From: Candidatus Woesearchaeota archaeon | Lineage (GTDB): Archaea; Nanobdellota; Nanobdellia; Pacearchaeales; GW2011-AR1 | DNA length: 33,643 nt | Reading direction: 5' to 3' | Assembly (NCBI GenBank): GCA_964364885.1 | Contig: CAYIOA010000003.1 | Span: 1,558 to 35,200, forward strand | In this document: one piece after another, positions 1 to 33,548 of the stretch | Layout of the letters: each line of letters begins with the position of its first letter | How positions within the stretch are numbered: the stretch's first letter is position 1 | The notes under the pieces: generated by a model | Told to the model about the DNA's origin: nothing | Database searches by the model: none | Seen by the model: the letters and a program-made list of their open reading frames with translations, nothing else | Translations under genes and position numbers: made by a program

Positions 1-2
1 AT

Positions 3-215
3 CTTTTCTGGATGAAAAACACACTAATACCTTTGGATATAATCTGGATTTCAGAAGATGGGAAAATAGTCCATATAGAGCGCGCTTTGCCATGCACAAC
101 AAATGAGTGCATTTCTTATATTCCAAAGGAAAAGGCGAAATATGTTTTAGAATTAAATTATAATTTCACAGAGAGAAAGAATATATCTGTAGGAGAGCAA
201 ATAGAATTCAGCTAA
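3..215 (+). CDS. DUF192 family protein, 5' end outside the window
   Basis: The frame is open from the window edge. FWMKNTLIPLDIIW and YVLELN are DUF192 motifs. Confidence 0.85.
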   Translation, partial: LFWMKNTLIPLDIIWISEDGKIVHIERALPCTTNECISYIPKEKAKYVLELNYNFTERKNISVGEQIEFS

Positions 216-999
216 CCATTTCCCTCAAAGTTCTGCCATCTCCTTTGTAACGCTCCTTCAAGTTGTTTATAATCTTTTTATGAATTTGGGAAATTCTTGA
301 CTCTGACAAGTCAAGCACTATTCCAATCTCCTCCATAGTTAAACTCTCATAATAATACAATACCAAAACCAGTCTCTCTTCTTTGCTTAATCCTTTATTA
401 ATATGCGCGATAAATAATTCTTTGTTAATTTTCTCTGAGGGATCTCTTGTTCTTTCATCTTGCACATCATACAACATCCATCCCCCGCTGTTTTTGTTCT
501 CGCCCTCTAATAAATCAGACAGATATGCTGTTCGGCCTATATTGGACCCTCTCATAAGTCTATTGTACCTCTCGTGGCTTAATCCCATTTTTTCAGCAAT
601 GTCTTTTGAGTCTAATACTTTGTTCGATTCATAATCCAAAGACTCTATTGCTCTCTCTCTATCTCTCTTAAAGGCTCTTAGTGTTCTTGACTGCGAAGCT
701 GTGCTTCTCGCCCAGTCTAGAATAGCTCCTCTCAATCTATGCCGGCAATAAGTTTCAAAACTAACTTCTCTTTTCGGGTCATAAGACTCTACAGCATTAA
801 TTAATCCTACAAAACCTGCACTGACAATTTCGTTAAGCTCCAGAGGAACTCTCCTGGAAATCCGCGCAGCGTGTGAATACGCCAGAATTAAATAATGCTC
901 AACCAAATTGTTTCTCAGTTTAACATCCGACCTTCCGCCTTCAACATATTTCCCCCAGAGTTCAGAAACATTATCGTCGCGAAACTCGCTATGAGCCAT
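208..999 (-). CDS. Sigma-70 family sigma factor, FliA/WhiG (sigma28)-like
   Basis: Region 2: RNNLVEHYL..., EIVSAGFVGLINAVESYDPKREVSFETYC..RLRGAILD. Region 3: DIAEKMGLS. Region 4 HTH: LSKEERLVLVLYYYESLTMEEIGIVLDLSESRISQIH. 263 aa. Confidence 0.93.
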   Translation of the reverse strand: MAHSEFRDDNVSELWGKYVEGGRSDVKLRNNLVEHYLILAYSHAARISRRVPLELNEIVSAGFVGLINAVESYDPKREVSFETYCRHRLRGAILDWARSTASQSRTLRAFKRDRERAIESLDYESNKVLDSKDIAEKMGLSHERYNRLMRGSNIGRTAYLSDLLEGENKNSGGWMLYDVQDERTRDPSEKINKELFIAHINKGLSKEERLVLVLYYYESLTMEEIGIVLDLSESRISQIHKKIINNLKERYKGDGRTLREMVS

Positions 1000-1019
1000 G
1001 TACCTTTTAGTTTTTAGAG

Positions 1020-1034
1020 TTAATAAATACTTTT
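1020..1034 (-). promoter_or_regulatory. Archaeal BRE/TATA promoter of the sigma factor gene
   Basis: Minus-strand AAAAGTA-TTTATTAA. The TATA starts 28 nt before the ATG at 999, matching the spacing of other genes here. Confidence 0.6.
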
Positions 1035-1096
1035 ACTTTTCTAAATAATCTTTTCATATGGACTTTCTCAGCCAATTCTGCAAAAGCTGAACAAAG

Positions 1097-1104
1097 TTTA
1101 TAAA
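1097..1104 (+). promoter_or_regulatory. TATA box of rpl41e
   Basis: TTTATAAA with an A-rich BRE-like sequence upstream, 29 nt before the ATG at 1126. Confidence 0.7.
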
Positions 1105-1125
1105 GAGCATATATTTCAATGACAC

Positions 1126-1242
1126 ATGAAAAGAAGCTCACGACGCTGGAAGAAAAAAGGGCAAATGCGCTGGAAATGGCAGAGAAAAAGACTCAAAAAA
1201 GAAAAAAGAAAGAGGAGATTGCACAGGCAAAGATCTGCTTAG
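1126..1242 (+). CDS. rpl41e: Ribosomal protein eL41 (eS32), 38 aa, absent from the ORF track
   Basis: Manual translation MKRSSRRWKKKGQMRWKWQRKRLKKEKRKRRLHRQRSA matches the archaeal L41e pattern KRSSRRWKKKG.MRWKW. It has its own TATA box. Confidence 0.92.
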   Translation: MKRSSRRWKKKGQMRWKWQRKRLKKEKRKRRLHRQRSA

Positions 1243-1329
1243 ACTAGTTTTTGATTCTGTAAAGCTTACTAAAAGAAAAGGACTTTTGATTACAGCAATC
1301 TTTATAAAAACTTAACTCTCAGGACACAG

Positions 1330-2295
1330 ATGTCTCAAACAAACATTTGGACTGAGAAATACCGCCCCTCGAAATTTGACGATATGGTCGGTCAGCAAGA
1401 GGTAATCAAAAGAGTGAAGTCGCTTGTTCAGGCAATGAATATCCCGCATTTGCTCTTTGCCGGGCCTGCAGGAACTGGGAAGTCTACTCTGGCTTTAATT
1501 ACAGTAAAAGAATTATTCGGAGAAAGATGGAAAGAAAATTACCTTGAATTAAATGCTTCTGATGAAAGAGGAATTGACGTTGTAAGACAAAAAGTAAAAG
1601 ATTTTGCAAGAACAAAAGCTATAGAGAACATCCCGTTTAAAGTTATTTTTTTAGATGAGGCGGATGCTTTGACAAAAGAAGCACAGCAGGCTTTAAGGAG
1701 AACAATGGAAAATTATTCTAATACGTGCAGATTTATACTGTCGTGCAACTATTCTTCAAGAATAATAGATCCGATACAATCGCGGTGTGTTGTCTTTAGA
1801 TTTAAATTGCTGGAAAAGAAGGATGTCTCTAAGATTGTAAAGAGGATATCTGAAAAAGAAGGCCTTAAAATTGCAGATGAAGCATTTGAAACTGTGTATG
1901 AATCATCTGAAGGAGATTGCAGAAGAGCAATTAACCTGCTTCAAGCAACTGCCTCTATATCTTTAGACGTCAATTCTGAGATGATAAGAATGATTTCCTC
2001 TAGCACAAAACCTGCAGATATTCGGGTTGTCCTTGGTTATGCTCTTGCTGGAGATTTTATAAGCGCGCGGGATAAACTGCTTGATGTAATGCTAAAAGAG
2101 AGTGTTTCTGGGACAGACATAATAAAGTCAATTCAAAAAGAGATATGGAATCTGCAAATAGAACCAAGCATCAAGGTCAGACTTACTGAGAAAACGGGGG
2201 ACACTGAATTTAGAATGATAGAGGGTTCTGATGAATTTATTCAACTTCAGGCTCTTCTTGCGTCTTTTGTTCTTGCAGGTCAGGGTAAAATATAG
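1330..2295 (+). CDS. rfcS: Replication factor C small subunit
   Basis: WTEKYRP, Walker A GPAGTGKS, ELNASDERGIDVVR, LDEADALT, IQSRC. TATA at 1301. Confidence 0.97.
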   Translation: MSQTNIWTEKYRPSKFDDMVGQQEVIKRVKSLVQAMNIPHLLFAGPAGTGKSTLALITVKELFGERWKENYLELNASDERGIDVVRQKVKDFARTKAIENIPFKVIFLDEADALTKEAQQALRRTMENYSNTCRFILSCNYSSRIIDPIQSRCVVFRFKLLEKKDVSKIVKRISEKEGLKIADEAFETVYESSEGDCRRAINLLQATASISLDVNSEMIRMISSSTKPADIRVVLGYALAGDFISARDKLLDVMLKESVSGTDIIKSIQKEIWNLQIEPSIKVRLTEKTGDTEFRMIEGSDEFIQLQALLASFVLAGQGKI

Positions 2296-2296
2296 A

Positions 2297-3460
2297 ATGT
2301 CTCTCTCTGAAAAATACCGCGCGAAAAAATACTCTGATATTTTCGGTCAGAATAAGGCTGTAGAGGAAATAAAAGAATTTTTAAAAAACTTCCCAAAAAG
2401 AAAGGCTCTTGTTTTATACGGGCCAGCTGGGACTGGAAAAACCTCCCTGGCTCTTGCTGCCGCCCATGAAAATAATCTTGAAATTCTAGAGCTAAATGCA
2501 TCTGATTTAAGAAATAGGGCAAAACTTGAGGGAGTATTAAAACCTGCGACAGAACAGAGAGGATTATTCAAAAAGGGGAAAATTCTTCTTATGGATGAAG
2601 TAGATGGTGTTACCGGCACAGATATTGGAGGCATTCCTGAATTGGTGAGATTAATAAAAACAACAAGGTATCCTATAATAATGACGTGCAATGACGTCTG
2701 GCAATCCAAGCTTTCTTCTTTAAGAGCTGAGTCAAAGATAGTAGAGATGAAAATTCTTGATATGGATGTAATAACTTCTGTTTTATTGAGAATATGCGAG
2801 AAAGAAGAAGTGAAAAAGGAGCATTCTTTACTAAGGCAGATAGCAATAAAATCGCAAGGAGACTTAAGGGCGGCTATAAACGATTTGGAGTCTTATTTCT
2901 ACACGGAGGAGCTGACAATAGATACCTCTGAAAAGAGAGATGTTGAAGAAAATGTTTTTAACATATTAAGAAGACTGTTTAAAGAAAGGAACGACTTTCT
3001 TGACTTGTTTGATAACACCAGCCTGTCTTTGGATGAACTGTTATTATGGATTGAGGAGAATATTCCTAAAGAATACAAGAATGAATCTCTGGCAAGAGCT
3101 TATTATGCTTTAGGCAATGCAGATGTTTTTCGCGGCAGGATTTATAGAAACCAGTCATGGCGTTTTTTAATTTATCAAAACGCTTTTCAAAGCGCTGGGA
3201 TTTCTTACGCCAAACCCTTCCCAATGACTGGCTTTACAAAATACGAGCGCCCTAAACGTATTTTGAAAATATGGCTCCATAATCAAAAGATAGGCAAAAA
3301 GAAAACAATTTCCAAGAAATATGCCCGTTTTGTCCATTGCTCAACGCAGAGAATTATCCGAGATTTTGAACTTTTAAAGCCAATTTTAAAGCAGGAAGAT
3401 GTTCAGAAAAAATTAAAATTCAGCGATGAAGAAATTGCTTATTTGAATACTTTGAAGTGA
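2297..3460 (+). CDS. rfcL: Replication factor C large subunit
   Basis: EKYR, GPAGTGKT, ELNASD, MDEVDG, GDLRAAINDL, WIEENIP. The start was moved to the ATG at 2297, just after the rfcS stop. Confidence 0.93.
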   Translation: MSLSEKYRAKKYSDIFGQNKAVEEIKEFLKNFPKRKALVLYGPAGTGKTSLALAAAHENNLEILELNASDLRNRAKLEGVLKPATEQRGLFKKGKILLMDEVDGVTGTDIGGIPELVRLIKTTRYPIIMTCNDVWQSKLSSLRAESKIVEMKILDMDVITSVLLRICEKEEVKKEHSLLRQIAIKSQGDLRAAINDLESYFYTEELTIDTSEKRDVEENVFNILRRLFKERNDFLDLFDNTSLSLDELLLWIEENIPKEYKNESLARAYYALGNADVFRGRIYRNQSWRFLIYQNAFQSAGISYAKPFPMTGFTKYERPKRILKIWLHNQKIGKKKTISKKYARFVHCSTQRIIRDFELLKPILKQEDVQKKLKFSDEEIAYLNTLK

Positions 3461-3507: not shown

Positions 3508-3732
3508 ATGATTGAAATAAAGACTAAATTAAGAAGGTGGGGGAATTCATTTGGAATAGTTGTGCCTCAAAAAGCAGTTGAGCAAACAAAGGCAAAAGAA
3601 GGAGATGAAATTATAATTTTACTTAAGAGAAAGAAAAACAATGTTTTGAGAGAGATGTTTGGGTCACATAAATTCTCAAAACCAGTTAAGCAATTGATGA
3701 GAGAAATGGATGAAGAATTATACCATGACTAA
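3508..3732 (+). CDS. AbrB/MazE/SpoVT-family antitoxin (VapB-like)
   Basis: KLRRWGNSFGIVVP...KEGDEI motif, acidic tail, and position upstream of a PIN gene. Confidence 0.9.
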   Translation: MIEIKTKLRRWGNSFGIVVPQKAVEQTKAKEGDEIIILLKRKKNNVLREMFGSHKFSKPVKQLMREMDEELYHD

Positions 3733-4087
3733 ATATCTTTTTGATACATATGCAATAATAGAAATAATTGAAGGAAATTCAGATTATGAAAAATATGTTG
3801 ATGAGGAGATAATAATAAATGATTTTGTTTTTGCGGAATTGTGCTATAGTTTAATAAAAACAAACTATTCCAACTTAGACCTCTATATAAAAAAATATGA
3901 AGAATTTAGTGTTCCTCTTGAAGCAGAAACGATTAAGAAAGCCATGCAGTTTAGACATGAAAACAAAAAGAAAAAATTGTCTATGACAGATTGCATCTCA
4001 TATTTTCAGGCTAAAGAATTAGGGATAAAATTTTTAACAGGAGACAAAGAATTTGAAAATTTAGAAAATGTGGAATTTATCAAATAG
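3725..4087 (+). CDS. vapC: PIN-domain toxin (VapC-like)
   Basis: YLFDTYAIIE, AEL, LSMTDC, LTGDKEF. The likely start at 3725 overlaps the antitoxin 3' end. Confidence 0.9.
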   Translation: MTKYLFDTYAIIEIIEGNSDYEKYVDEEIIINDFVFAELCYSLIKTNYSNLDLYIKKYEEFSVPLEAETIKKAMQFRHENKKKKLSMTDCISYFQAKELGIKFLTGDKEFENLENVEFIK

Positions 4088-20899: not shown

Positions 20900-20946
20900 C
20901 CACAATAAGTTGTGTTAAAAAATAATAAAAACACAAGATATTGTGG
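20900..20946. promoter_or_regulatory. Two tandem NrdR boxes
   Basis: CCACAATAAGTTGTGT (20900-15) and ACACAAGATATTGTGG (20931-46) are 16-bp near-palindromes resembling the NrdR consensus acaCwAtATaTwGtg, offset by 31 bp. Confidence 0.85.
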
Positions 20947-20957
20947 TGGTAAATGAA

Positions 20958-21401
20958 ATGCACTGCCCTTATTGCCTGAATGTTGAAACAAAAGTTGTTG
21001 ATAAAAGGGACATTGGAGGGGCAACAAAGCGCAGAAGAGAGTGCTTTAAGTGCGGTCGGAGATTTAGCACAAGAGAGCTTGTAGAATATGCTGAACTCCG
21101 TGTGATTAAGAAGGACGGCAGAAGAGAGCACTTTGACAGGGAAAAATTAAAAAGAGGTATAGTAAAGGCCTGCGAGAAGAGGCCGATTACTACAGAGAAG
21201 ATAGATAAAATGATAGCTATGGTAGAGGAAAAATTGCAAAAAAAGGGGAAGGAAATTCCAGCAACACTCATAGGAGATTTGACTTCTAAGGAATTAAAAA
21301 AAATTGACAAGGTTGCTTATATAAGATTTGCTTCTGTTTATAAAGATTTTACAGAATTGGATGATTTTAAAAAAGAGATAAGGGAGCTGATAAAGAGATA
21401 A
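20958..21401 (+). CDS. nrdR: Transcriptional repressor NrdR
   Basis: MHCPYC, VVDKR, RRRECFKC..RFST.E, ATP cone VIKKDGRRE.FDREKL, D.VAYIRFASVY. Confidence 0.95.
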   Translation: MHCPYCLNVETKVVDKRDIGGATKRRRECFKCGRRFSTRELVEYAELRVIKKDGRREHFDREKLKRGIVKACEKRPITTEKIDKMIAMVEEKLQKKGKEIPATLIGDLTSKELKKIDKVAYIRFASVYKDFTELDDFKKEIRELIKR

Positions 21402-21402
21402 A

Positions 21403-24294
21403 ATGACATTTGAGCTAACAAATAAAAAAAAGGTGTATGATGAGAATGGAAACGGGAATGGTCTTTCAGAGGGAAGGATTGGCGGTTACTCTGGTGTTCC
21501 TAGAATTTATCTGGATAAATTAAAGATTGAGAGATACTTCACTCACTCGGGAAAAAGCCCTTTTGAATATGATATTTTTGGGAATCCTATAAGATGGGTT
21601 TCAGAAGATGTTAGTGTTACAGATGACATGGGAAAGCTAATTTTTACCCAGCCGAATGTCAGGAGGCCTGAATTTTGGTCGTCGCTTGCGATTAAAGTTG
21701 TTGCAAACAAATATTTTTGGGGCGACCAGAAAAAAGGCGAGAGAGAAAATTCTGTTGAATTGCTGGTTGGCAGAGCCGCCAGATTTATTGGAAGACAGGC
21801 TTTCAAGCAGAGATACTTTAATGAAGAGCAGTCTGATATATTGAGAGATGAGATTGCTGCGATTTGCTTAAATCAAATGTGCGTATTTAACTCTCCTGTT
21901 TGGTTCAATGCAGGAATTTTTGAGTATAATAAAGAAGCAGGAGGAGTTTCTGCATATAAATGGGATTCTGCACTTGGGAAAGTTGTAAGAGCAAGTGTTG
22001 GAGAGGATAGGCCGCAATGTTCTGCCTGCTTCATACAGGGTATTGAGGATAACATGGATTCTATTATGAGTGTTCAAGTTGCAGAAGCAAATTTATTTAA
22101 GGCTGGCTCTGGAACAGGAACAAACCGCTCTCCATTAAGGAGTTCTAAAGAGACTTTAACTGGTGGAGGACGCGCTTCAGGACCTGTAAGCTTTATGCGA
22201 GGATATGATTCTTATGCGGGCGTTATAAAATCAGGCGGTAAAACAAGAAGAGCTGCAAAAATGGAAATATTGAATGTTGATCATCCTGACATAATTGAGT
22301 TTGTTGAAGCAAAACAAAAAGAAGAAAAAAAAGCATGGGCGTTGATTGAACAGGGCTACGACGGCGGAATGAACGGAGAAGCTTACAAAAGCATTTCATT
22401 TCAGAACTGCAACATGTCTGTCAGCGTGCCTGACTCGTTTATGGAAGCAGTAAAGGAGGATAAAGAATGGCAGACAAAATATGTGAAGAAAAAAGAAGTT
22501 TGTGAGAGCTTTAAAGCCAGGCATATATTGAATAAAATCGCAGAAGGCACATGGATTTGCGGGGACCCTGGAATATTCTGCGACACAATAATAAATAGAT
22601 ATCATACAAGCAAGAATTCAGGAAGAATTAATGCCAGCAATCCGTGTTGTGAGTATTTATATCTTGATGATACTGCATGCAATTTAGCATCAATAAATCT
22701 AATTAAATTCAGAACACCGGAAGGAAGCTTTGATGTTGATAAATTTAAGAGAGTTGTGAAATATTTTATTATTGCGATGGACATCATTGTTGACGGCGCA
22801 AGCTACCCGACTGAGAAGATAACTGAAAGGTCGCATGTTTTTAGAACTCTTGGATTGGGCTATGCTAATCTTGGGGCCTTGTTAATGTCTTTCGGCCTGC
22901 CTTATGATTCTGAAGAAGGAAGAGCTGTTGCTGCTGCGATAACTGCTATAATGTGCGGAGAAGCTTACAAAACTTCTGCAGAAATTGCATCTTTGATTGG
23001 TCCTTTTCCAGGATTTGAGGAGAATAAAGAGCCTATGCTAGAAGTAATAAAGATGCATAGAGAACACGTTAAGGAAATTAATGTTGAGAAAATGCCCTCT
23101 CATTTGAGATATTTAGTTAATGATGCCTGGGACTCCTGGGCAGAGGCTCTTGAGCTTGGAGAAAAATATGGTTTTAGAAATGCACAGACAACTGTTATCG
23201 CTCCTACAGGAACTATTGCTTTTATGATGGATTGCGATACAACCGGAATTGAGCCAGATATTGCTTTAATAAAATATAAAGTTTTAAGCGGAGGTGGAAT
23301 GTTAAAAATTGTTAATAGGTCTGTGCCGCTTGCTTTGAAAAATCTTGGATATAAAGATGAGCAAATCAGGGAGATAATTGAATATACTGACAGGAATGAC
23401 AGTATAGAGGGGGCGCCTTATTTGAGAGAAGAGCATCTGCCTGTTTTTGACTGCGCATTTAAGCCAGCAAAAGGAAAAAGATTTATTCATTATAAAGGGC
23501 ATATAAAAATGATGGGCGCCTGCCAGCCGTTTATTTCAGGAGGCATTAGCAAGACGATTAATATGCCTGAACATTCCAGTGTGGAGGAGATTGCAGATGC
23601 GTATGTTTTCGCATGGGAGCAGGGATTAAAGGCGATTGCGATTTACCGCGAGAACAGCAAACGAAGCCAGCCATTGAATACGCAAAAAACTGAAGGAGAG
23701 ATTGTAAAGAAACAAGAGCCTAAGAATAAATTAGGCGAGAGAACTAAACTTCCGCAGACAAGGAAATCTATCACCCATAAATTTGACATATCAGGGCATG
23801 AGGGCTTTGTTACAGTTGGATTATATGATGACGGCAAACCCGGGGAGATTTTTGTGACGATGCATAAACAAGGCTCGACAATCAGAGGATTAATGGATGC
23901 ATGGGCAACTTCTGTCTCATTAAACTTGCAATATGGCGCTAATGTGAATGACTTATTTGGAAAATTCAGGCATCATAAATTTGAGCCAGCTGGTTTTGTG
24001 AAAAATTTAAACGGGGGAGAGATTGACAGCAAGATAAAACAAATTAGAACTGCTTCGTCTATTGTCGATTATGTTGCGCAGTTTATGCTTAATAACTTTG
24101 GTGTAAGAAGCAGTGCAATTGATGTAGAAGTTGAGAATTTTGAGGACCTTAAAGAAGAGCAAGCGTCGCTAGAAGAATTCTCAAATGAAGGTCTTGCTTG
24201 TCCGATCTGCGGCGGTGTTGCAAAACGTATTGGCAACTGCGCTATTATGTGCACAAGCTGCAATCAAACTACAAGAAGCGGCTGCGGCGAGTAG
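21403..24294 (+). CDS. nrdJ: Class II (B12-dependent) ribonucleotide reductase with TSCPD domain and C-terminal Cys cluster
   Basis: FNSPVWFN, PQCSACFI, GGKTRRAAKM, NPCCEY, ACNLAS, APTGTI, SKTINMP, GKPGEIF, CPIC..CTSC..GC. Confidence 0.95.
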   Translation: MTFELTNKKKVYDENGNGNGLSEGRIGGYSGVPRIYLDKLKIERYFTHSGKSPFEYDIFGNPIRWVSEDVSVTDDMGKLIFTQPNVRRPEFWSSLAIKVVANKYFWGDQKKGERENSVELLVGRAARFIGRQAFKQRYFNEEQSDILRDEIAAICLNQMCVFNSPVWFNAGIFEYNKEAGGVSAYKWDSALGKVVRASVGEDRPQCSACFIQGIEDNMDSIMSVQVAEANLFKAGSGTGTNRSPLRSSKETLTGGGRASGPVSFMRGYDSYAGVIKSGGKTRRAAKMEILNVDHPDIIEFVEAKQKEEKKAWALIEQGYDGGMNGEAYKSISFQNCNMSVSVPDSFMEAVKEDKEWQTKYVKKKEVCESFKARHILNKIAEGTWICGDPGIFCDTIINRYHTSKNSGRINASNPCCEYLYLDDTACNLASINLIKFRTPEGSFDVDKFKRVVKYFIIAMDIIVDGASYPTEKITERSHVFRTLGLGYANLGALLMSFGLPYDSEEGRAVAAAITAIMCGEAYKTSAEIASLIGPFPGFEENKEPMLEVIKMHREHVKEINVEKMPSHLRYLVNDAWDSWAEALELGEKYGFRNAQTTVIAPTGTIAFMMDCDTTGIEPDIALIKYKVLSGGGMLKIVNRSVPLALKNLGYKDEQIREIIEYTDRNDSIEGAPYLREEHLPVFDCAFKPAKGKRFIHYKGHIKMMGACQPFISGGISKTINMPEHSSVEEIADAYVFAWEQGLKAIAIYRENSKRSQPLNTQKTEGEIVKKQEPKNKLGERTKLPQTRKSITHKFDISGHEGFVTVGLYDDGKPGEIFVTMHKQGSTIRGLMDAWATSVSLNLQYGANVNDLFGKFRHHKFEPAGFVKNLNGGEIDSKIKQIRTASSIVDYVAQFMLNNFGVRSSAIDVEVENFEDLKEEQASLEEFSNEGLACPICGGVAKRIGNCAIMCTSCNQTTRSGCGE

Positions 24295-30131: not shown

Positions 30132-33100
30132 ATGGCATTAACTATATTCAGAAAACAAGTAAAAGCATTGAGATTTAATTTGCTTAGTCCGGAACAGGTT
30201 AAAAGATTGAGCATGGTAAAGGTGGTCACGCCTGAACTTTATGATATTGATGGTTTTCCTGTTGATGGAGGGCTAATGGACTTAAGACTTGGAGCGATTG
30301 ATCCAGGAGTTCGATGCAGGACTTGCGGAAAGCGTGTTAAAGAATGCCCGGGCCATCCTGGAAGTATAGAACTAGCAAGACCTATTTTCCATATCAAGTA
30401 TATCCCATTGATAGAGCTGTGTTTAAGAAGTTTCTGCCCGCGCTGCGGGAAACTAGCACTTAGTGATGAAAAACAAAAATCTTTAACAATTGCCGAGCGT
30501 TCAAAAAAAGCAAGAGATGCTAAAAAATGCCCTCATTGCAATGAAGGCATAGAAAGAGTTAGACTTGAGAAGCCAACTAATTTTTATGTTGATAAAAAGA
30601 GATTAAGCCCGATTGAAGTAAGAGAAAGAATTGTTAATATTTCTGGGGAGGAATTGATAAAACTAGGGATAAATCCGAAAACAGCCAGACCGGAGTGGGC
30701 TGTTCTTTCTTTATTGCTGGTTCCATCTGTTACTGTCAGACCTTCTATAACATTAGAAACAGGAGAAAGAAGCGAGGATGACTTAACTCATAAGCTAAGT
30801 GATATAATAAGATCAAACCAAAGACTTTGGGAGAATTTAAACGCGGGAGCTCCTGAAGTTATAATCGAAGACTTGTGGGATTTGCTGCAATATCATATAA
30901 CAACTTTCTTTGACAATAATATCTCGAGAATTCCTCCTGCAAGACACAGATCAGGACAGCCTTTGAAAACGATAACAGAGAGGATAAAGGGAAAGGAAGG
31001 AAGAATAAGACACAACCTGGCTGGAAAGAGAGTTAATTATTCTGCGAGAACAGTTGTTTCTCCTGACCCTTATTTGAGAATAAATGAAGTTGGTATTCCT
31101 GAAGAGATAGCCAGAATAATTACGGTTGCTGAATCTGTTACTAATTTAAATCTTGAGGAAATGAAAACTTTGGTGATGAAGGGAGAGAACTATCCTGGCG
31201 CGAATTATATAATCAGACCTGATAAAAGAAGAAAAAGAATTACAGAAGAGCTAAAAGAAGAAATTGTTTTAGAGCTGCAACCAGGATATAAAGTTGAGAG
31301 ACATTTAAGAGATGGAGATATAGTTCTGTTTAATAGACATCCTACATTGCACAAGCAGGGTCTGATGGCACATTACGCAAAGGTTCTGCCTGGGAGAACA
31401 TTTAGATTGAATCCCGCGGCTGCTGCACCCTATAACGCTGATTTTGACGGGGATGAAATGAACATACACAGCCCTCAGAATGAGGAAGCTTTATCAGAAG
31501 CAAAAGTGCTTTTAGATATAAACAGCAATATAATATCCTCAAAAAATAATACGAATCTGGTAGGAACTATTACTGATGCTATTACTGGTGCATATCTTTT
31601 AGGAAGAGAAACTTTGGAAAGAAGCGAAGCAAACCAATTATTATTCGCGGCTAATATAATTAATCCTCTAAAAAAGAAAGATATCTCTGGGAGGGATGTT
31701 TTTGCTCAAATAATCCCTCATGGCGCGAATATTAGTATGCCTGCTGTAATAAGCGGAAGCAAAACTTTTGGAGTTGAAAATGGAGAAATGGTAAAGATTA
31801 TAGATAAAGAGCTTGGAAGAGAGATCGCTGTTGATTGTATAAATAAAGCTTTTAATATAGGAACAAATTATCTTACTAGAAAAGGATATACTTTATCTTT
31901 GCAAGACTTAAATGTTTCATCCAAAGTAAAAGAAATTGCCGGAGAGATAATTTCAAAAGCAGAAAATAGAACACGGGAAGTAATAGAAGAATATAATTCC
32001 GGGATGCTGGAATCTATGCCTGGAAAGAATTTGGAAGAAACAAGAGAGACAAAGATATTGCAGATTTTAAACGGTCTCGCAACTGAGATAAGTAATATTG
32101 TTAAATTGAATCTTCCGCCTGATGGAAATATAAACAAAATGATCAAGTCAGAAAGCGGGGGAAGCACATTGAATATCACACAAATGGGCTGTTCTGTTGG
32201 ACAGCAATCATTATGGAATAAAAGAATCAAGTTTGGCTATTATGGGAGAACATTATCTTTCTTTAAAAAAGAAGACCTTGGGCCTGAGTCTCGTGGTTTT
32301 ATAAAATCCTCTTATTTTGACGGATTAAAGCCAACTGAATTCTTTTTTGGGGCTATTACTGGAAGAGACAGTTTAATGGATACTGCTTTACGAACTCCAA
32401 AGTCTGGATATTTGTATAGAAGACTTGTAAGCGCCCTGCAGGATTTGAAAGTTGAATATGACGGAACGGTCAGAGATGCTTCTGAGAATATTGTCCAATT
32501 TCAATATGGAGGCGATGGAAAAGATGTTTCTAGATTACACTTAAAAGATGATAAAATCTCCTCCGGGGAAGCTGCGGGCGTTATTACAGCACAATCTTTT
32601 GGAGAGGCTTCGACGCAAATGGTTCTTAACGTATTCCACCATGCAGGTGTTGCACAAATGCAGATTACTTTGGGTTTGCCCAGACTAATTGAAATTCTTG
32701 ATGCAAGAAAACAGCCTTCAACACCTATTATGGAAATCTTTCTTAATAAAGAGTTTAATAATGAAAAAGATGCAAGAGTAATAGCTGAGAAAATCAAAGA
32801 AGTGAAATTAAAGGATATTCTTTCTGAAATAAATATAGACTTTGGGAATAAAAAAATAGAAATAGAGCTAGACGCAAAGGCGCTGAGAGGAGTTCATATA
32901 GGGTCTCAGAAAGTTGTTGAGAGATTGGAAGAAAAGAAATTAAAAGTGAGATTGAACAATTTAAAAATAACTGCCCCGTTGCCAGAGCTTAATTTTAAAG
33001 AGATATACAAACTTAAAGAAAAACTGAAGGAAACAATTGTTTCTGGAGTAAAGGGAGTGTCACAGGTTGTTGTGTCAAAAAGAGACAGAGAATATATTAT

Positions 33101-33548
33101 TCTTGCTACCGGGTCGAACTTGAAAGAAGTTATTGAATTTAAGGGAGTTAATAAAGACAGAACTTCTTCAAATGATATTTATGATATAATGAAGGTCTTT
33201 GGTATTGAGGCTGCGCGGCAAATAATCATAAATGAGATTAAAAAGGTTATAGAAACGCAGGGATTAGATATTAATGAAAGACATTTAGGGCTTGTTGCAG
33301 ACGCAATGACTTCTTCAGGCGTTGTTAAGGGAGTAACAAGAATGGGAATAATAACTGACAAAGCAAGTATTCTGGCAAGAGCAACTTTCGAAACACCTGA
33401 CAAACAATTTGTAAATGCAACTATCAAAGGAGCAAAAGACGAGCTGAATTCTGTTATAGAGAATATTCTTCTCAATCAAGCGATTCCAGTCGGCACCGGA
33501 TTACCTGGATTATTAGTAAGGGTTACCGGACCACTATCAAAAAAATAA
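30132..33548 (+). CDS. rpoA: RNA polymerase largest subunit Rpo1, A' and A'' fused
   Basis: CRTCG...CPGH, GKRVNYSAR, catalytic YNADFDGDEMN, bridge helix TPKSGYLYRRL. It continues in frame into the A'' part AQSFGE..TQM, GLPRL.EI, ARATFE, VGTG. Confidence 0.97.
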   Translation: MALTIFRKQVKALRFNLLSPEQVKRLSMVKVVTPELYDIDGFPVDGGLMDLRLGAIDPGVRCRTCGKRVKECPGHPGSIELARPIFHIKYIPLIELCLRSFCPRCGKLALSDEKQKSLTIAERSKKARDAKKCPHCNEGIERVRLEKPTNFYVDKKRLSPIEVRERIVNISGEELIKLGINPKTARPEWAVLSLLLVPSVTVRPSITLETGERSEDDLTHKLSDIIRSNQRLWENLNAGAPEVIIEDLWDLLQYHITTFFDNNISRIPPARHRSGQPLKTITERIKGKEGRIRHNLAGKRVNYSARTVVSPDPYLRINEVGIPEEIARIITVAESVTNLNLEEMKTLVMKGENYPGANYIIRPDKRRKRITEELKEEIVLELQPGYKVERHLRDGDIVLFNRHPTLHKQGLMAHYAKVLPGRTFRLNPAAAAPYNADFDGDEMNIHSPQNEEALSEAKVLLDINSNIISSKNNTNLVGTITDAITGAYLLGRETLERSEANQLLFAANIINPLKKKDISGRDVFAQIIPHGANISMPAVISGSKTFGVENGEMVKIIDKELGREIAVDCINKAFNIGTNYLTRKGYTLSLQDLNVSSKVKEIAGEIISKAENRTREVIEEYNSGMLESMPGKNLEETRETKILQILNGLATEISNIVKLNLPPDGNINKMIKSESGGSTLNITQMGCSVGQQSLWNKRIKFGYYGRTLSFFKKEDLGPESRGFIKSSYFDGLKPTEFFFGAITGRDSLMDTALRTPKSGYLYRRLVSALQDLKVEYDGTVRDASENIVQFQYGGDGKDVSRLHLKDDKISSGEAAGVITAQSFGEASTQMVLNVFHHAGVAQMQITLGLPRLIEILDARKQPSTPIMEIFLNKEFNNEKDARVIAEKIKEVKLKDILSEINIDFGNKKIEIELDAKALRGVHIGSQKVVERLEEKKLKVRLNNLKITAPLPELNFKEIYKLKEKLKETIVSGVKGVSQVVVSKRDREYIILATGSNLKEVIEFKGVNKDRTSSNDIYDIMKVFGIEAARQIIINEIKKVIETQGLDINERHLGLVADAMTSSGVVKGVTRMGIITDKASILARATFETPDKQFVNATIKGAKDELNSVIENILLNQAIPVGTGLPGLLVRVTGPLSKK

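What the first reader, a model, noticed from the sequence alone, without database searches (positions are those of the whole stretch)
208..1034. Intact bacterial-type FliA/WhiG sigma factor in an archaeal chromosome, under an archaeal TATA promoter
Seen: a full 263-aa sigma-70 protein with regions 2, 3 and 4 sits next to archaeal rpl41e and rfcS/rfcL. Its TATA box has the same leaderless spacing as the core genes, and no flagellar or anti-sigma gene is nearby. Known: archaea initiate with TBP/TFB and are not known to use sigma factors. Inference: the gene is domesticated and expressed. It could (a) dock on the archaeal RNAP clamp coiled-coil, which is homologous to the beta-prime element bound by sigma region 2, (b) act as a stand-alone DNA-binding regulator, or (c) be an effector delivered into a bacterial host to reprogram its transcription. 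From memory, FETYC and YYYExLTMxEIG..LDLSESR resemble planctomycete FliA/WhiG proteins, which could point to a donor or host; this is unverified.
Basis: partly seen in the sequence, partly recalled or inferred. Interest (0 to 1): 0.92.

Follow-up and report, generated by a model that had tools for sequence, protein, structure and literature searches.

The report
Bacterial-type sigma factor in DPANN archaeon
A tiny groundwater archaeon carries an intact bacterial-style sigma factor gene, taken from planctomycete-like bacteria and placed behind an archaeal promoter; such genes were already reported in these archaea, but what they do is still unknown.

Summary
Window 208-999 (-) encodes an intact 263-aa sigma-70-family protein with sigma2, sigma3 and sigma4 domains. 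It lies on the same N-free stretch as archaeal rfcS/rfcL, PolB, FEN1, Rpo2 and Rpo1. A BRE/TATA element sits at the genome's usual leaderless spacing. The gene is not an assembly artefact: contigs of 15,437 and 14,257 nt carry it and also carry the same neighbours.

Its nearest relatives (44-48% identity) form a FliA-like clade whose labelled members are all Phycisphaerae. No orthologue turned up in 20 same-genus genomes or 400 same-phylum genomes. Base and amino-acid composition match the AT-rich host, and 47 of 52 clade-invariant residues are kept.

It is one of four sigma genes in this 0.81-Mb genome. Sigma70_r2 domains occur in 166 of 400 other sampled genomes of the phylum. Castelle et al. 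2021 already reported sigma-70 genes in DPANN archaea, so this is a new member of a known but unexplained kind.

The genome has no bacterial core RNAP, flagellin or FlgM. It does have TBP, TFB, TFE and Spt5. The protein is most likely a domesticated DNA-binding regulator. Docking on the Rpo1 clamp coiled-coil has only weak in-silico support (0.52 against 0.30 for the best control).

The parts
208..999 (-). Sigma-70-family gene, FliA/WhiG-like group 3, 263 aa, intact
   Evidence: ORF. Pfam r2 and r4 above cut-off. NCBIfam FliA_WhiG 171 bits, under the 189.6 cut-off. PDB sequence matches to WhiG 6pfv at 1.7e-33 and E. coli FliA 6pmi at 5.2e-29. Foldseek top matches are SigD, WhiG and sigma28.
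700..978 (-). Sigma2 domain (residues 8-100). In bacteria this domain binds the core and recognises the -10 element.
   Evidence: AF2 helices 8-100 with pLDDT about 77-92. Of 26 clade-invariant columns in residues 15-110, 23 are kept. The other alleles show no differences before residue 118.
532..687 (-). Sigma3 domain (residues 105-156)
   Evidence: AF2 helices 105-124, 131-137 and 142-156. Aligned to WhiG and FliA region 3. Pfam r3 gave no hit at E<=0.01.
424..531 (-). Region 3.2-like linker (residues 157-192), predicted disordered
   Evidence: pLDDT under 50 for residues 155-181 and 186-195.
250..423 (-). Sigma4 helix-turn-helix domain (residues 193-250). Most allelic differences fall here.
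   Evidence: Pfam Sigma70_r4 at 203-249. Differences from alleles P0001 and P0122 lie at residues 198, 210, 223, 230, 242, 243 and 245.
1020..1034 (-). Predicted archaeal promoter: TATA-like box at 1020-1027 (-28..-21 from the ATG) and an A-run at 1031-1034 (-32..-35, BRE position)
   Evidence: Genome-wide upstream profile. Matrix score 5.41, 71st percentile of 556 genes, reached by 0.25% of random positions. This is a prediction; no transcript data exist.
208..1028 (.). Unit that Logan contigs join head to tail: position 1028, one letter C, then position 208. It equals the ORF plus its TATA box. Probably a tandem second copy in sister strains.
   Evidence: read-laying table 5c gives depth 7 in X1 and 2 in X2. 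Contig pieces start exactly at 208 and at 999 (= 1029 minus k-1). Two 263-aa alleles, P0001 and P0122, are each recorded on a contig of 15,437 nt. This is an inference and was not verified.
3..215 (+). 3' part of a DUF192 gene, convergent with the sigma gene and overlapping its end by 8 nt
   Evidence: Pfam DUF192 profile positions 40-96. The 5' part lies across the 100-N scaffold gap, at L119:1174-1455, profile positions 1-54.
1119..1247 (+). Conserved 42-aa Lys/Glu-rich ORF, divergent from the sigma gene. Not identified as L41e.
   Evidence: No family match. Found upstream of rfcS in 12 of 22 loci from 20 same-genus genomes.
1330..3460 (+). rfcS (1330-2295) and rfcL (2297-3460), archaeal clamp-loader genes on the same N-free stretch
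   Evidence: Pfam Rep_fac_C, AAA and RFC lid domains. An rfcL variant is recorded on a 14,257-nt contig, the same length as the contig with the partial sigma labelled 'Nanoarchaeota archaeon'.
30777..30917 (+). Clamp coiled-coil of Rpo1 (residues about 216-262), the candidate docking site for sigma2
   Evidence: Rpo1 domains. Gap-free BLASTP alignment of residues 186-327 to a bacterial beta-prime, 36% identity. Nearly invariant across 26 genomes of the order. Complex prediction gave weak support.

Best explanation
This is a real chromosomal gene of a roughly 0.8-Mb DPANN (Nanoarchaeota-type) archaeon. It encodes a complete group-3 sigma-70-family protein with sigma2, sigma3 and sigma4 domains. 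The gene came by horizontal transfer from bacteria related to a Phycisphaerae-type FliA-like clade of Planctomycetota. It has since taken on the host's AT-rich composition, gained a host-type BRE/TATA leaderless promoter, and been kept open by selection. Up to here the statement is shown or strongly inferred.

The host has no bacterial core RNA polymerase and no flagellar genes. The protein therefore cannot act as FliA does in bacteria. It most likely works inside the archaeon as a sequence-specific DNA-binding transcription regulator. Sigma4, and perhaps sigma2/3, would read a promoter-like motif and so modulate TBP/TFB/TFE-dependent initiation. This part is inferred.

A direct contact of sigma2 with the Rpo1 clamp coiled-coil, the site used by TFE, TFB and Spt5, is possible but has only weak support. 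In sister strains the gene may be tandemly duplicated, with copies that differ in sigma4. If so, DNA specificity is what is evolving.
For: Real and resident:
- No N lies between the gene and rfcS/rfcL.
- The window also holds PolB, FEN1, an Rpo2 with the archaeal/eukaryal domains 4 and 5, and Rpo1.
- The genome holds TBP, TFB, TFE-alpha and Spt5-NGN.
- The only match to the bacterial rpoC model is the archaeal Rpo1, at 242 bits against a cut-off of 963.5.
- Proteins at 90% identity or more are recorded on contigs of 15,437 nt and 14,257 nt, the latter labelled 'Nanoarchaeota archaeon'. Variants of the neighbours PIN, Trm5 and rfcL are recorded on contigs of those same lengths.
- DNA runs of 2 studies hold the stretch. 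Depth was found in 30, 30, 29 and 25 of 30 bins.

Origin:
- Apart from its own cluster, the best of 120 listed hits are 44-48% identical.
- 11 of the 120 carry an organism label. Ten are planctomycete lineages and one reads 'cyanobacterium TDX16'.
- In a 92-row tree the protein plus P0001 are sister to a 40-row clade whose four labelled rows are Phycisphaerae. The joint clade has SH-aLRT 100 and the stem branch is 1.63.

Kept by selection:
- 47 of 52 columns invariant in 30 bacterial clade members are retained, as are 79 of 100 columns conserved at 90% or more.
- GC is 39.5% and GC3 37.9%. The closest fetched bacterial homologue (L039) has 56.1% and 70.4%.
- The FYMINK fraction is 0.27, against a clade mean of 0.18 and maximum of 0.23.
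- In a genome of 36% GC, an unconstrained frame of 263 codons would not stay open over such a change in composition. This last point is inference.
- The four other alleles show no differences before residue 118, so sigma2 is the same in all of them.

Promoter.

Fold: sigma2, sigma3 and sigma4 domains. The top structural matches are SigD, WhiG and sigma28.

DNA-reading residues: 6 of the 11 E. coli sigma28 residues named as -10 contacts are identical here (R50, T83, R88, R98, R108, R112). The source is bioRxiv 10.1101/2020.01.02.893370 (passage), mapped with the alignment.

Context: this genome has 4 sigma genes. The r2 domain occurs in 166 of 400 other genomes of the phylum. Published mention: PMC8204110.

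Clamp docking: ipSAE was 0.52 against 0.30 for the best of 3 controls, verdict 'weak support'. The mark was reached by 58 of 80 solved complexes and 2 of 110 mismatched pairs. At 0.60 or under it was reached by only 7 of those 80, and by both mismatches that passed. The runs agree in at least 82% of their contacts and the partner's pLDDT is at least 73. My own alignments were used. Bacterial sigma2 / beta-prime clamp complexes are solved, so the pass may come from memory. The clamp coiled-coil is described as a shared binding site of TFB, TFE, sigma70, Spt4/5 and NusG (PMC3223566, passage).
Against: - No transcript or protein evidence exists.
- No orthologue was found in 20 same-genus genomes, where the best match was 41% identity over 75 residues. 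None was found in 400 other genomes of the phylum, where the best was 32% identity at E 4e-20. The gene is therefore accessory and could be dispensable.
- Differences between strains are mostly amino-acid changing: 6 non-synonymous to 1 synonymous in X1, and 8 to 5 in X4. With 624 non-synonymous and 165 synonymous sites, pooled dN/dS is about 0.6. The counts are small, and the tool left 14 further differences unshown. This cannot be told apart from relaxed constraint.
- At columns conserved at 90% or more, retention is 0.79. That is at the bottom of the bacterial range (leave-one-out median 0.98, minimum 0.78).
- From established knowledge, recalled here: free sigma factors usually bind promoter DNA poorly without core enzyme.
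- No target motif was found. The canonical sigma28 pattern (recalled consensus) is not enriched: 2 observed against 1.5 +/- 1.0 in shuffles.
- The host has a full archaeal initiation set, so no gap needs filling.
Confidence: 0.55

Rival explanations
1. True sigma-like initiation factor of the archaeal RNA polymerase. Sigma2 docks on the Rpo1 clamp coiled-coil in place of, or beside, TFE-alpha and the TFB linker. Sigma4 reads an upstream element. The protein thereby redirects the Pol II-like enzyme to a special promoter class. This is the strong form of the reader's option (a).
For: - Complex prediction: weak support, 0.52 against best control 0.30. Counts as: 58 of 80 solved complexes and 2 of 110 mismatched pairs reached the mark; at 0.60 or under, only 7 of those 80, and both mismatches that passed. 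Contact agreement at least 82%, partner pLDDT at least 73.
- The Rpo1 clamp region aligns without gaps through the coiled-coil to a bacterial beta-prime, at 36% identity and 58% positives.
- The coiled-coil is the common site for sigma70, TFB, TFE, NusG and Spt5 (PMC3223566).
- Sigma2, which a mere helix-turn-helix regulator would not need, is the best-kept part. It keeps 23 of 26 clade-invariant columns and does not vary among alleles before residue 118.
Against: - The tool itself says a weak pass is more often wrong than right unless the guess was likely beforehand, and it can come from memory of solved bacterial holoenzymes.
- Sigma4 would need a flap-tip-like partner on Rpo2, and sigma3.2 would need a path through the RNA exit channel that TFB occupies. 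This is inference from established structures.
- The clamp coiled-coil is nearly invariant across 26 genomes of the order, with and without sigma genes, so no adaptation to sigma is visible.
- TFE and Spt5, which use the same site, are both present.
- The gene is confined to one species, which fits poorly with a core initiation role.
Confidence: 0.22
2. Accessory passenger gene. It was transferred, is tolerated, varies between strains and is on its way to loss, with no role in the archaeon.
For: - Not found in 20 congeners or in 400 genomes of the phylum.
- None of the other sigma genes tested from this genome has a relative above 35% identity over most of its length in 45 other genera of the family, so sigma genes turn over fast.
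- The ratio of non-synonymous to synonymous changes between strains is near the neutral expectation.
- Assemblies break within or beside the gene.
Against: - The frame of 263 codons is intact in every full-length allele seen (P0124, P0001, P0122).
- Amelioration is complete, yet 47 of 52 invariant residues are kept.
- A good host-type promoter lies at the right spacing.
- Sigma2 is identical in all alleles.
- A genome of 0.8 Mb carrying four sigma genes argues that they are used.
Confidence: 0.15
3. Effector for a bacterial partner. The protein is delivered into a planctomycete-type host or neighbour cell and reprograms that cell's RNA polymerase.
For: - The nearest relatives are Phycisphaerae sigma factors.
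- Residues needed with a bacterial core are largely kept.
- DPANN archaea are generally taken to be symbionts (abstract of PMC8204110).
Against: - By my own reading, the first 20 residues printed hold no hydrophobic, signal-peptide-like stretch; no predictor was run.
- No secretion or injection genes lie beside the gene.
- At 44-48% identity, and with a changed residue at the position of E. coli Q73 (H87 here), it is far from any sampled bacterial counterpart.
Confidence: 0.05
4. Assembly or binning artefact: a bacterial fragment joined to an archaeal contig.
For: The gene lies about 200 nt from a 100-N scaffold gap. No listed Logan piece spans 941-998.
Against: - No N lies between the gene and rfcS.
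- The gap interrupts a DUF192 gene whose two halves fit one profile.
- Composition is the host's, not that of its bacterial relatives.
- Two other contigs carry both the sigma gene and the archaeal neighbours.
- Contig pieces cross the DUF192/sigma boundary at 208 with 0 differences: X1 67-262 and X5 58-331.
- The promoter is of the archaeal type.
- The published survey ruled out mis-binning for DPANN sigma genes in general (PMC8204110).
Confidence: 0.03

Closest known systems
Bacterial sigma28 / FliA (E. coli 6PMI; P. aeruginosa 9WSM; A. aeolicus 1RP3)
   Same: Same fold and domain order: sigma2, sigma3, sigma4, with no region 1.1. Sequence matches run from 5e-29 to 4e-18. Foldseek probability is 1.00. 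Six of the 11 named -10-contact residues are identical.
   Different: Scores under NCBIfam's FliA_WhiG cut-off (171 against 189.6). The genome has no flagellin or FlgM and no bacterial core RNAP. Five of the 11 contact residues differ, including the counterparts of R58, Q73 and R95. The canonical sigma28 promoter pattern is not enriched.
WhiG of Streptomyces venezuelae (6PFV/6PFJ, RsiG-WhiG-c-di-GMP complex)
   Same: Best solved relative by sequence: 1.7e-33 over residues 10-252. It ranks 2-4 by fold, with 33% identity.
   Different: Scores 175 bits against the 343 cut-off of the WhiG equivalog model. I did not search for an RsiG-type partner. The host is archaeal.
Phycisphaerae-type FliA-like sigma clade (unnamed; PGAP calls its members 'sigma-70 family RNA polymerase sigma factor')
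   Same: Nearest relatives at 44-48% identity and about 259 aa. They share motifs across regions 2 and 4. 47 of 52 invariant columns are kept. The two form one clade with SH-aLRT 100.
   Different: The window's protein sits on a long stem (1.63 changes per column). It has a 2-residue deletion in region 2.1 and AT-driven amino-acid replacements. Its genome is archaeal. The clade's own regulon is unknown; the one fetched context (L039) shows no flagellar gene.
Sigma-70 genes of DPANN archaea (fam00359 in Castelle et al. 2021, PMC8204110)
   Same: The same phenomenon: bacterial sigma-70-family genes in DPANN genomes, mis-binning excluded, no anti-sigma found, mechanism unknown (passage). My count is 166 of 400 other genomes of the phylum.
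   Different: The other archaeal sigma proteins I fetched are only 23-44% identical over the stretches that matched, some of them short. They lie on long branches and do not group with the window's protein. This looks like a separate acquisition confined to one species. I could not check whether the paper's family includes this clade, because supplements are closed.
Archaeal TFE-alpha, the TFB linker and Spt5-NGN (users of the clamp coiled-coil)
   Same: If sigma2 docks on Rpo1, it would use the same coiled-coil tip (PMC3223566).
   Different: No homology to sigma. All are present in this genome, so the sigma protein would be an extra competitor or partner, not a replacement.
Archaeal regulators with sigma4-like helix-turn-helix domains (LuxR-type, HTH_10/Bat, Tfx)
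   Same: A precedent for sigma-region-4-type DNA-binding domains acting in archaea without a bacterial polymerase (InterPro domains listed in PMC5413776, passage).
   Different: Those proteins have only the C-terminal helix-turn-helix. This one keeps a full and well-conserved sigma2 and sigma3.

Membership tests
Sigma-70 family (Pfam Sigma70_r2 + Sigma70_r4; NCBIfam TIGR02937) | Region 2 and region 4 domains score above the curated cut-offs | tested here: met
   r2 49.2 bits against 24; r4 60.3 against 24.1. TIGR02937 99 bits against 42.9.
Sigma-70 family, group 3 architecture | Sigma2, sigma3 and sigma4 domains joined by a region 3.2 linker, with no region 1.1 | tested here: met
   The AF2 model has helical domains at 8-100, 105-156 and 193-250 and a disordered stretch at 155-195. 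Top fold matches are SigD, WhiG and sigma28. Pfam r3 itself gave no hit at E<=0.01.
FliA/WhiG subfamily (NCBIfam TIGR02479) | Whole-protein score at or above the curated cut-off | tested here: not met
   171.0 bits against 189.6. WhiG equivalog 175.2 against 343. FliA PRK06986 155.3 against 201.
FliA (flagellar sigma28) in function | Occurs together with flagellar or chemotaxis genes and the anti-sigma FlgM | tested here: not met
   Flagellin_N: 0 matches. FlgM: best 14.7 bits, under the cut-off of 25. Archaellin: 0 matches. The genome is 87% complete.
FliA (flagellar sigma28) in function | Residues that read the GCCGATAA-type -10 element | tested here: inconclusive
   6 of 11 residues named for E. 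coli sigma28 are identical; S42, S72, R77, H87 and A109 differ. TAAA-N14-16-GCCGATA (recalled consensus) occurs 2 times against 1.5 +/- 1.0 in shuffles.
Sigma factor in the functional sense | A bacterial core RNA polymerase in the same cell to bind to | tested here: not met
   The only matches to rpoC_TIGR lie in the archaeal Rpo1 (241.8 bits against a cut-off of 963.5). The second-largest subunit has the archaeal/eukaryal Rpb2 domains 4 and 5.
Sigma factor in the functional sense | Binds the clamp coiled-coil of the largest RNAP subunit through sigma2 | tested here: inconclusive
   Predicted complex with Rpo1 1-330: weak support, 0.52 against best control 0.30. Counts and caveats as. No experiment was done.
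Phycisphaerae-type FliA-like clade | Groups with the clade in a tree and keeps its invariant residues | tested here: met
   Joint clade SH-aLRT 100, as sister on a long stem (quick method; 76 of the 120 hits used). 47 of 52 invariant columns are kept.
DPANN sigma-70 family fam00359 (Castelle et al. 2021) | Membership in the authors' protein family | not testable with these tools
Only the text passage was read.

The most novel reading that the evidence does not exclude
A bacterial group-3 sigma factor has been wired into a Pol II-like transcription system. Sigma2 docks on the Rpo1 clamp coiled-coil, competing or cooperating with TFE and Spt5. Sigma4 selects a promoter class. This would give a DPANN archaeon a sigma-style switch on top of TBP/TFB. 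A tandem duplication of the gene with its TATA box in sister strains, with copies that differ only in sigma3-sigma4, would be this specificity evolving in real time.
Probability: 0.2. Interest if true: 0.9.

Novelty: new member of a known kind. Interest (0 to 1): 0.5.

Why it matters
Sigma factors and the TBP/TFB/TFE set are textbook markers of the bacterial and the archaeal/eukaryal ways of starting transcription. Sigma genes are common in DPANN archaea: 166 of 400 sampled genomes of this phylum, and already noted in print in 2021. Nobody knows what they do without a bacterial polymerase.

This locus is a clean test case:
- The protein is small and complete, and alignable to solved sigma28 and WhiG structures.
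- Its bacterial source clade is identifiable.
- Its promoter is of the archaeal type.
- The host's own Rpo1/Rpo2 genes lie 26 kb away on the same contig.
- Natural alleles vary only in the DNA-reading half.

Showing that it binds an archaeal RNAP would reveal a cross-domain hybrid initiation system. Showing that it binds only DNA would show how a polymerase subunit becomes an ordinary regulator. If it proves to be an idle passenger, the finding is ordinary.

Tried and rejected
Expression. The look-up of sequencing runs listed no RNA holder, so expression and a transcript start at 999 could not be examined.

Read mapping. Only Logan contigs were available, and most listed pieces are short. No listed piece spans 941-998, and 367 pieces were not shown. 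Continuity from the ORF body to its promoter therefore rests on the other assemblies, not.

dN/dS. Only the differences printed could be classified. 14 more were not shown. The result, pooled about 0.6, is inconclusive.

Search for sigma28-type promoters with consensus patterns recalled from memory. There was no convincing enrichment. The relaxed pattern TAAA-N14-16-CCGATA gave 11 against 5.3 +/- 2.0, but the hits were not examined for position relative to genes.

Mobile element or virus origin. No integrase or transposase lies beside the gene. The best viral-contig relative is 36% identical. PHROGs and PADLOC gave only generic sigma matches. Flanking direct repeats are weak: 25 nt at 76%. Rejected.

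Empty-site comparison. In the 22 rfcS loci of 20 same-genus genomes, neither the sigma gene nor DUF192 lies within 1.5 kb upstream. No empty site could therefore be defined.

A reading of the 1028-to-208 joint as a sigma-less deletion variant was considered (note). I dropped it in favour of a head-to-tail junction, because contig pieces start at 208 and at 999 (= 1029 - 30), which fits a branch after 1028 and a merge at 208. Neither reading was verified.

Context of the Phycisphaerae-type clade. The genome-contig scan found only two distant Clostridia FliA loci. The metagenome scan returned one clade member with a short context (L039). The clade's function in bacteria stays unknown.

Supplements of PMC8204110 could not be seen and may list this family's members.

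Literature. Searches for prior reports found only PMC8204110 on sigma genes in DPANN. An earlier report that I recall (Castelle et al. 2015, Current Biology) was not found in the library and was not read.
Full report
WHAT IS THERE

Window 208-999 on the minus strand is an uninterrupted ATG-started ORF of 263 codons. Pfam finds Sigma70_r2 at residues 32-101 (49.2 bits, cut-off 24) and Sigma70_r4 at residues 203-249 (60.3 bits, cut-off 24.1). NCBIfam aligns the protein over 1-222 of the 224 positions of FliA_WhiG (TIGR02479). The score is 171 bits, under the curated 189.6. The WhiG and FliA equivalog models are missed by a wide margin.

Pfam's region-3 model gives no hit at E<=0.01. An AlphaFold2 model built from a 32-row alignment (mean pLDDT 72.3) nevertheless shows three helical domains at 8-100, 105-156 and 193-250, with a disordered linker at 155-195. 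The best fold matches in the PDB are a B. subtilis SigD model, S. venezuelae WhiG and sigma28 proteins. By sequence the best solved relatives are WhiG (6pfv, 1.7e-33) and E. coli FliA (6pmi, 5.2e-29).

IS IT REALLY IN AN ARCHAEON?

The window is G000:C3:1558-35200, the stretch between two 100-N scaffold gaps. No N lies between the sigma gene and its neighbours. The window holds:
- RFC small and large subunits;
- a family-B DNA polymerase and FEN1;
- an Rpo2 with the archaeal/eukaryal Rpb2 domains 4 and 5;
- an Rpo1.

The 0.81-Mb genome (68 contigs, 87% complete, 1.5% contamination) has TBP, TFB, TFE-alpha and Spt5-NGN. The bacterial rpoC model matches only the archaeal Rpo1, at 242 bits against a cut-off of 963.5. 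The gap 200 nt to the left interrupts a DUF192 gene whose two halves match profile positions 1-54 and 40-96.

Other assemblies agree. The 90%-identity cluster of the protein has members on a 15,437-nt ENA/MGnify contig and on a 14,257-nt NCBI contig labelled 'Nanoarchaeota archaeon'. Variants of the neighbouring PIN and Trm5 proteins are recorded on a 15,437-nt contig, and an rfcL variant on a 14,257-nt contig. That these are the same contigs is inferred from their lengths.

DNA runs of two studies hold window 1-2600. Laid contigs give depth in 30, 30, 29 and 25 of 30 bins. They cross the DUF192/sigma boundary without a difference (X1 67-262, X5 58-331). They also cross from 999 to the small ORF, and from the small ORF into rfcS. 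No listed piece spans 941-998. I put the chimera explanation at about 3%.

PROMOTER

Upstream of 556 ORFs of 150 aa or more, the genome shows A at -33/-32 and TTTAWAAA at -29 to -22 from the ATG, with no Shine-Dalgarno signal. Leaderless transcripts from BRE/TATA promoters are therefore the rule. The sigma gene has a TATA-like box at -28 to -21 and an A-run at -35 to -32. Its matrix score is 5.41, the 71st percentile of genes, and 0.25% of random positions reach it. This is a prediction. No RNA run was listed.

WHERE IT CAME FROM

Among 5.8 billion proteins, the best hits outside its own cluster are 44-48% identical and about 259 aa long. Eleven of the 120 listed hits carry an organism label. 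Ten are planctomycete lineages (five Phycisphaerae; one each Sedimentisphaerales, Phycisphaerales, Planctomycetes, Planctomycetota and Planctomycetia). One reads 'cyanobacterium TDX16'.

I built a tree of 92 rows with the quick method. The rows were the window's protein, 76 of the 120 hits (all of P0001-P0045, every third of the rest, and all labelled ones), 13 other sigma ORFs from this phylum, and 2 Clostridia FliA. In this tree the window's protein and P0001 are sister to a 40-row clade whose four labelled rows are Phycisphaerae. The joint clade has SH-aLRT 100 and the stem is 1.63 changes per column. The clade is separate from a 35-row planctomycete FliA/WhiG clade. The other archaeal sigma proteins sit far away on very long branches.

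No orthologue was found elsewhere in the archaea searched:
- 40 relatives, including 20 genomes of the same genus. Eleven of 41 genomes have some match. The best non-self match is 28% identity at E 1.4e-16.
- 400 other genomes of the phylum. The best is 32% identity at E 4.0e-20.

HOW LONG HAS IT BEEN THERE, AND IS IT KEPT?

The gene has 39.5% GC and 37.9% GC3. Five host genes have 35-38% GC and 28-36% GC3. The closest fetched bacterial homologue (L039) has 56% and 70%. The share of AT-codon amino acids (FYMINK) is 0.27, outside the range of 30 bacterial clade members (mean 0.18, maximum 0.23) and near host proteins (0.30-0.38).

Despite this turnover, the protein keeps 47 of the 52 columns that are invariant in the 30 bacterial members. 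It keeps 79 of 100 columns conserved at 90% or more. That fraction, 0.79, is at the bottom of the bacterial leave-one-out range (median 0.98, minimum 0.78). An unconstrained 263-codon frame would not stay open in a genome of 36% GC; this point is inference. I read the pattern as long-term purifying selection with some relaxation or re-tuning.

Between strains the picture is weaker. The printed differences give 6 non-synonymous to 1 synonymous change in X1, and 8 to 5 in X4, for 624 and 165 sites. The counts are small and incomplete. All amino-acid differences among the four other alleles lie at residue 118 or later, so sigma2 is identical in all of them.

A POSSIBLE TANDEM COPY

Read laying lists contigs in X1 (depth 7) and X2 (depth 2) that join position 1028, one letter C, and position 208. 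That segment is the ORF plus its TATA box, head to tail. Contig pieces start exactly at 208 and at 999, which is 1029 minus k-1. X1 holds two alleles at similar depth in 262-348. Two different full-length alleles, P0001 and P0122, are each recorded on a 15,437-nt contig. They differ from each other at residues 230, 242 and 245, all in sigma4. The simplest reading is a tandem duplication in sister strains with diverging DNA-binding domains. A circle is not excluded, and I could not verify either.

CONTEXT IN THE GENOME AND THE PHYLUM

The genome has four sigma-70-family genes:
- this one;
- two adjacent ECF-sized genes at the start of contig C4;
- a 210-aa one on C29, about 3.3 kb from an archaeal-type EF-1-alpha gene on the same contig.

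The r2 domain occurs in 167 of 401 sampled genomes of the phylum (166 of 400 without this one), 162 of them above cut-off, and in 144 of 280 genera. It often lies in much longer open frames. Three positives are genomes flagged unpublished.

The C29 sigma and the first of the two C4 sigma genes have no relative above 35% identity over most of their length in 45 other genera of the family. Sigma genes are therefore common here but turn over fast.

Castelle et al. 2021 (PMC8204110; passage read) already reported sigma-70 genes in DPANN, 'particularly prevalent in Woesearchaeota'. They ruled out mis-binning, found no anti-sigma factors and left the mechanism open. My three literature searches found no other treatment.

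WHAT IT CAN AND CANNOT DO

It cannot be a flagellar sigma factor in the usual sense. No flagellin, archaellin or FlgM was found, and no bacterial core RNAP.

Eleven E. coli sigma28 residues are named as -10 contacts in bioRxiv 10.1101/2020.01.02.893370 (passage). I mapped them by hand on the alignment. The register is checked by the residue types at all 11 chain positions. Six are identical here (R50, T83, R88, R98, R108, R112). Five differ (S42, S72, R77, H87, A109). Most of the differing positions also differ or vary in the Phycisphaerae-type clade. The canonical sigma28 promoter pattern, recalled from memory, is not enriched in the genome. The target motif, if there is one, is unknown.

CLAMP DOCKING

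The clamp coiled-coil is described as the common site of TFB, TFE, sigma70, Spt4/5 and NusG (PMC3223566, passage). Rpo1 residues 186-327 align to a bacterial beta-prime without a gap through the coiled-coil, at 36% identity.

A predicted complex of Rpo1 1-330 (26-row alignment) with sigma residues 1-115 (31-row alignment) gave 'weak support'. The details are:
- Score 0.52 against 0.30 for the best of 3 controls.
- The mark was reached by 58 of 80 solved complexes and 2 of 110 mismatched pairs. At 0.60 or under it was reached by only 7 of the 80, and by both mismatches that passed.
- Contact agreement is at least 82%, and the partner's pLDDT is at least 73.
- My own alignments were used, and solved bacterial holoenzymes may be remembered by the model.

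This raises my odds for docking a little, to about one in five for the strong form.

VERDICT

The kind is already in print. This instance is new in four respects:
- its type (FliA-like) and its identifiable planctomycete affinity;
- its restriction to one species;
- its archaeal promoter;
- its allelic variation, and possible duplication, in sigma4.

The mechanism is open. I favour a domesticated DNA-binding regulator (0.55 for the whole statement). The rivals are a true RNAP-docking factor (0.22), an idle passenger (0.15), an effector (0.05) and an artefact (0.03).

Noticed in passing
G000 contig C4:125-679 and 700-1257 (L120); C29:5742-6374 (L121): Three more sigma-70-family genes lie in this 0.81-Mb genome. 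Two are adjacent ECF-sized genes (184 and 185 aa, 30% identical to each other). The third is a 210-aa gene on C29, about 3.3 kb from an archaeal-type EF-1-alpha gene on the same contig. Neither the C29 gene nor the first C4 gene has a relative above 35% identity over most of its length in 45 other genera of the family.
   Followed up: partly
window 208-1028: Logan contigs in two runs of one study join 1028, a C, and 208 head to tail. That unit is the ORF plus its TATA box. Two full-length alleles that differ in sigma4 are each recorded on a 15,437-nt contig. This suggests a tandem duplication, or a circle, in sister strains.
   Followed up: partly
window 30132-33548: Rpo1 is a single 1138-aa ORF covering Rpb1 domains 1-5 and nearly the whole rpoC model. 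In most archaea, as I recall, it is split into A' and A''. All 39 genomes of the order that matched the N-terminal query have open frames of 1095-1203 aa there.
   Followed up: partly
window 1119-1247: A 42-aa Lys/Glu-rich ORF lies upstream of rfcS and is conserved in 12 of 22 same-genus loci. Positions 1132-1218 draw very high contig depth (234 and 246 in X1 and X2). The cause is probably purine-rich low-complexity sequence shared with many organisms.
   Followed up: partly
window 3-215 and G000:C3:1174-1455 (L119): The 100-N scaffold gap cuts a DUF192 gene. The two halves overlap in profile coordinates (1-54 and 40-96), so the contig ends may in fact overlap.
   Followed up: no
window 20943-21401 and 21403-24294: A bacterial-type NrdR repressor (zinc ribbon plus ATP-cone) lies directly upstream of a class II-like ribonucleotide reductase with a TSCPD domain. 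It is another bacterial-style regulator in this archaeon.
   Followed up: no
window 3508-3732 and 3710-4087: An overlapping pair of an AbrB/MazE-type antitoxin-like ORF and a PIN-domain ORF, of the VapBC type, lies just after rfcL.
   Followed up: no
L121:6362-6733 (-), G000 contig C29: A 123-aa ORF with an N-terminal hydrophobic segment and several Cys pairs overlaps the start of the C29 sigma gene by 13 nt on the same strand. Its position would suit a membrane-anchored partner (anti-sigma-like). This was not tested.
   Followed up: no
other genomes of the phylum, e.g. G349:C5:268794-268997: Many Sigma70_r2 matches in this archaeal phylum lie in open frames far longer than a sigma factor, up to 1763 aa. 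This points to fusions of sigma domains with other domains.
   Followed up: no
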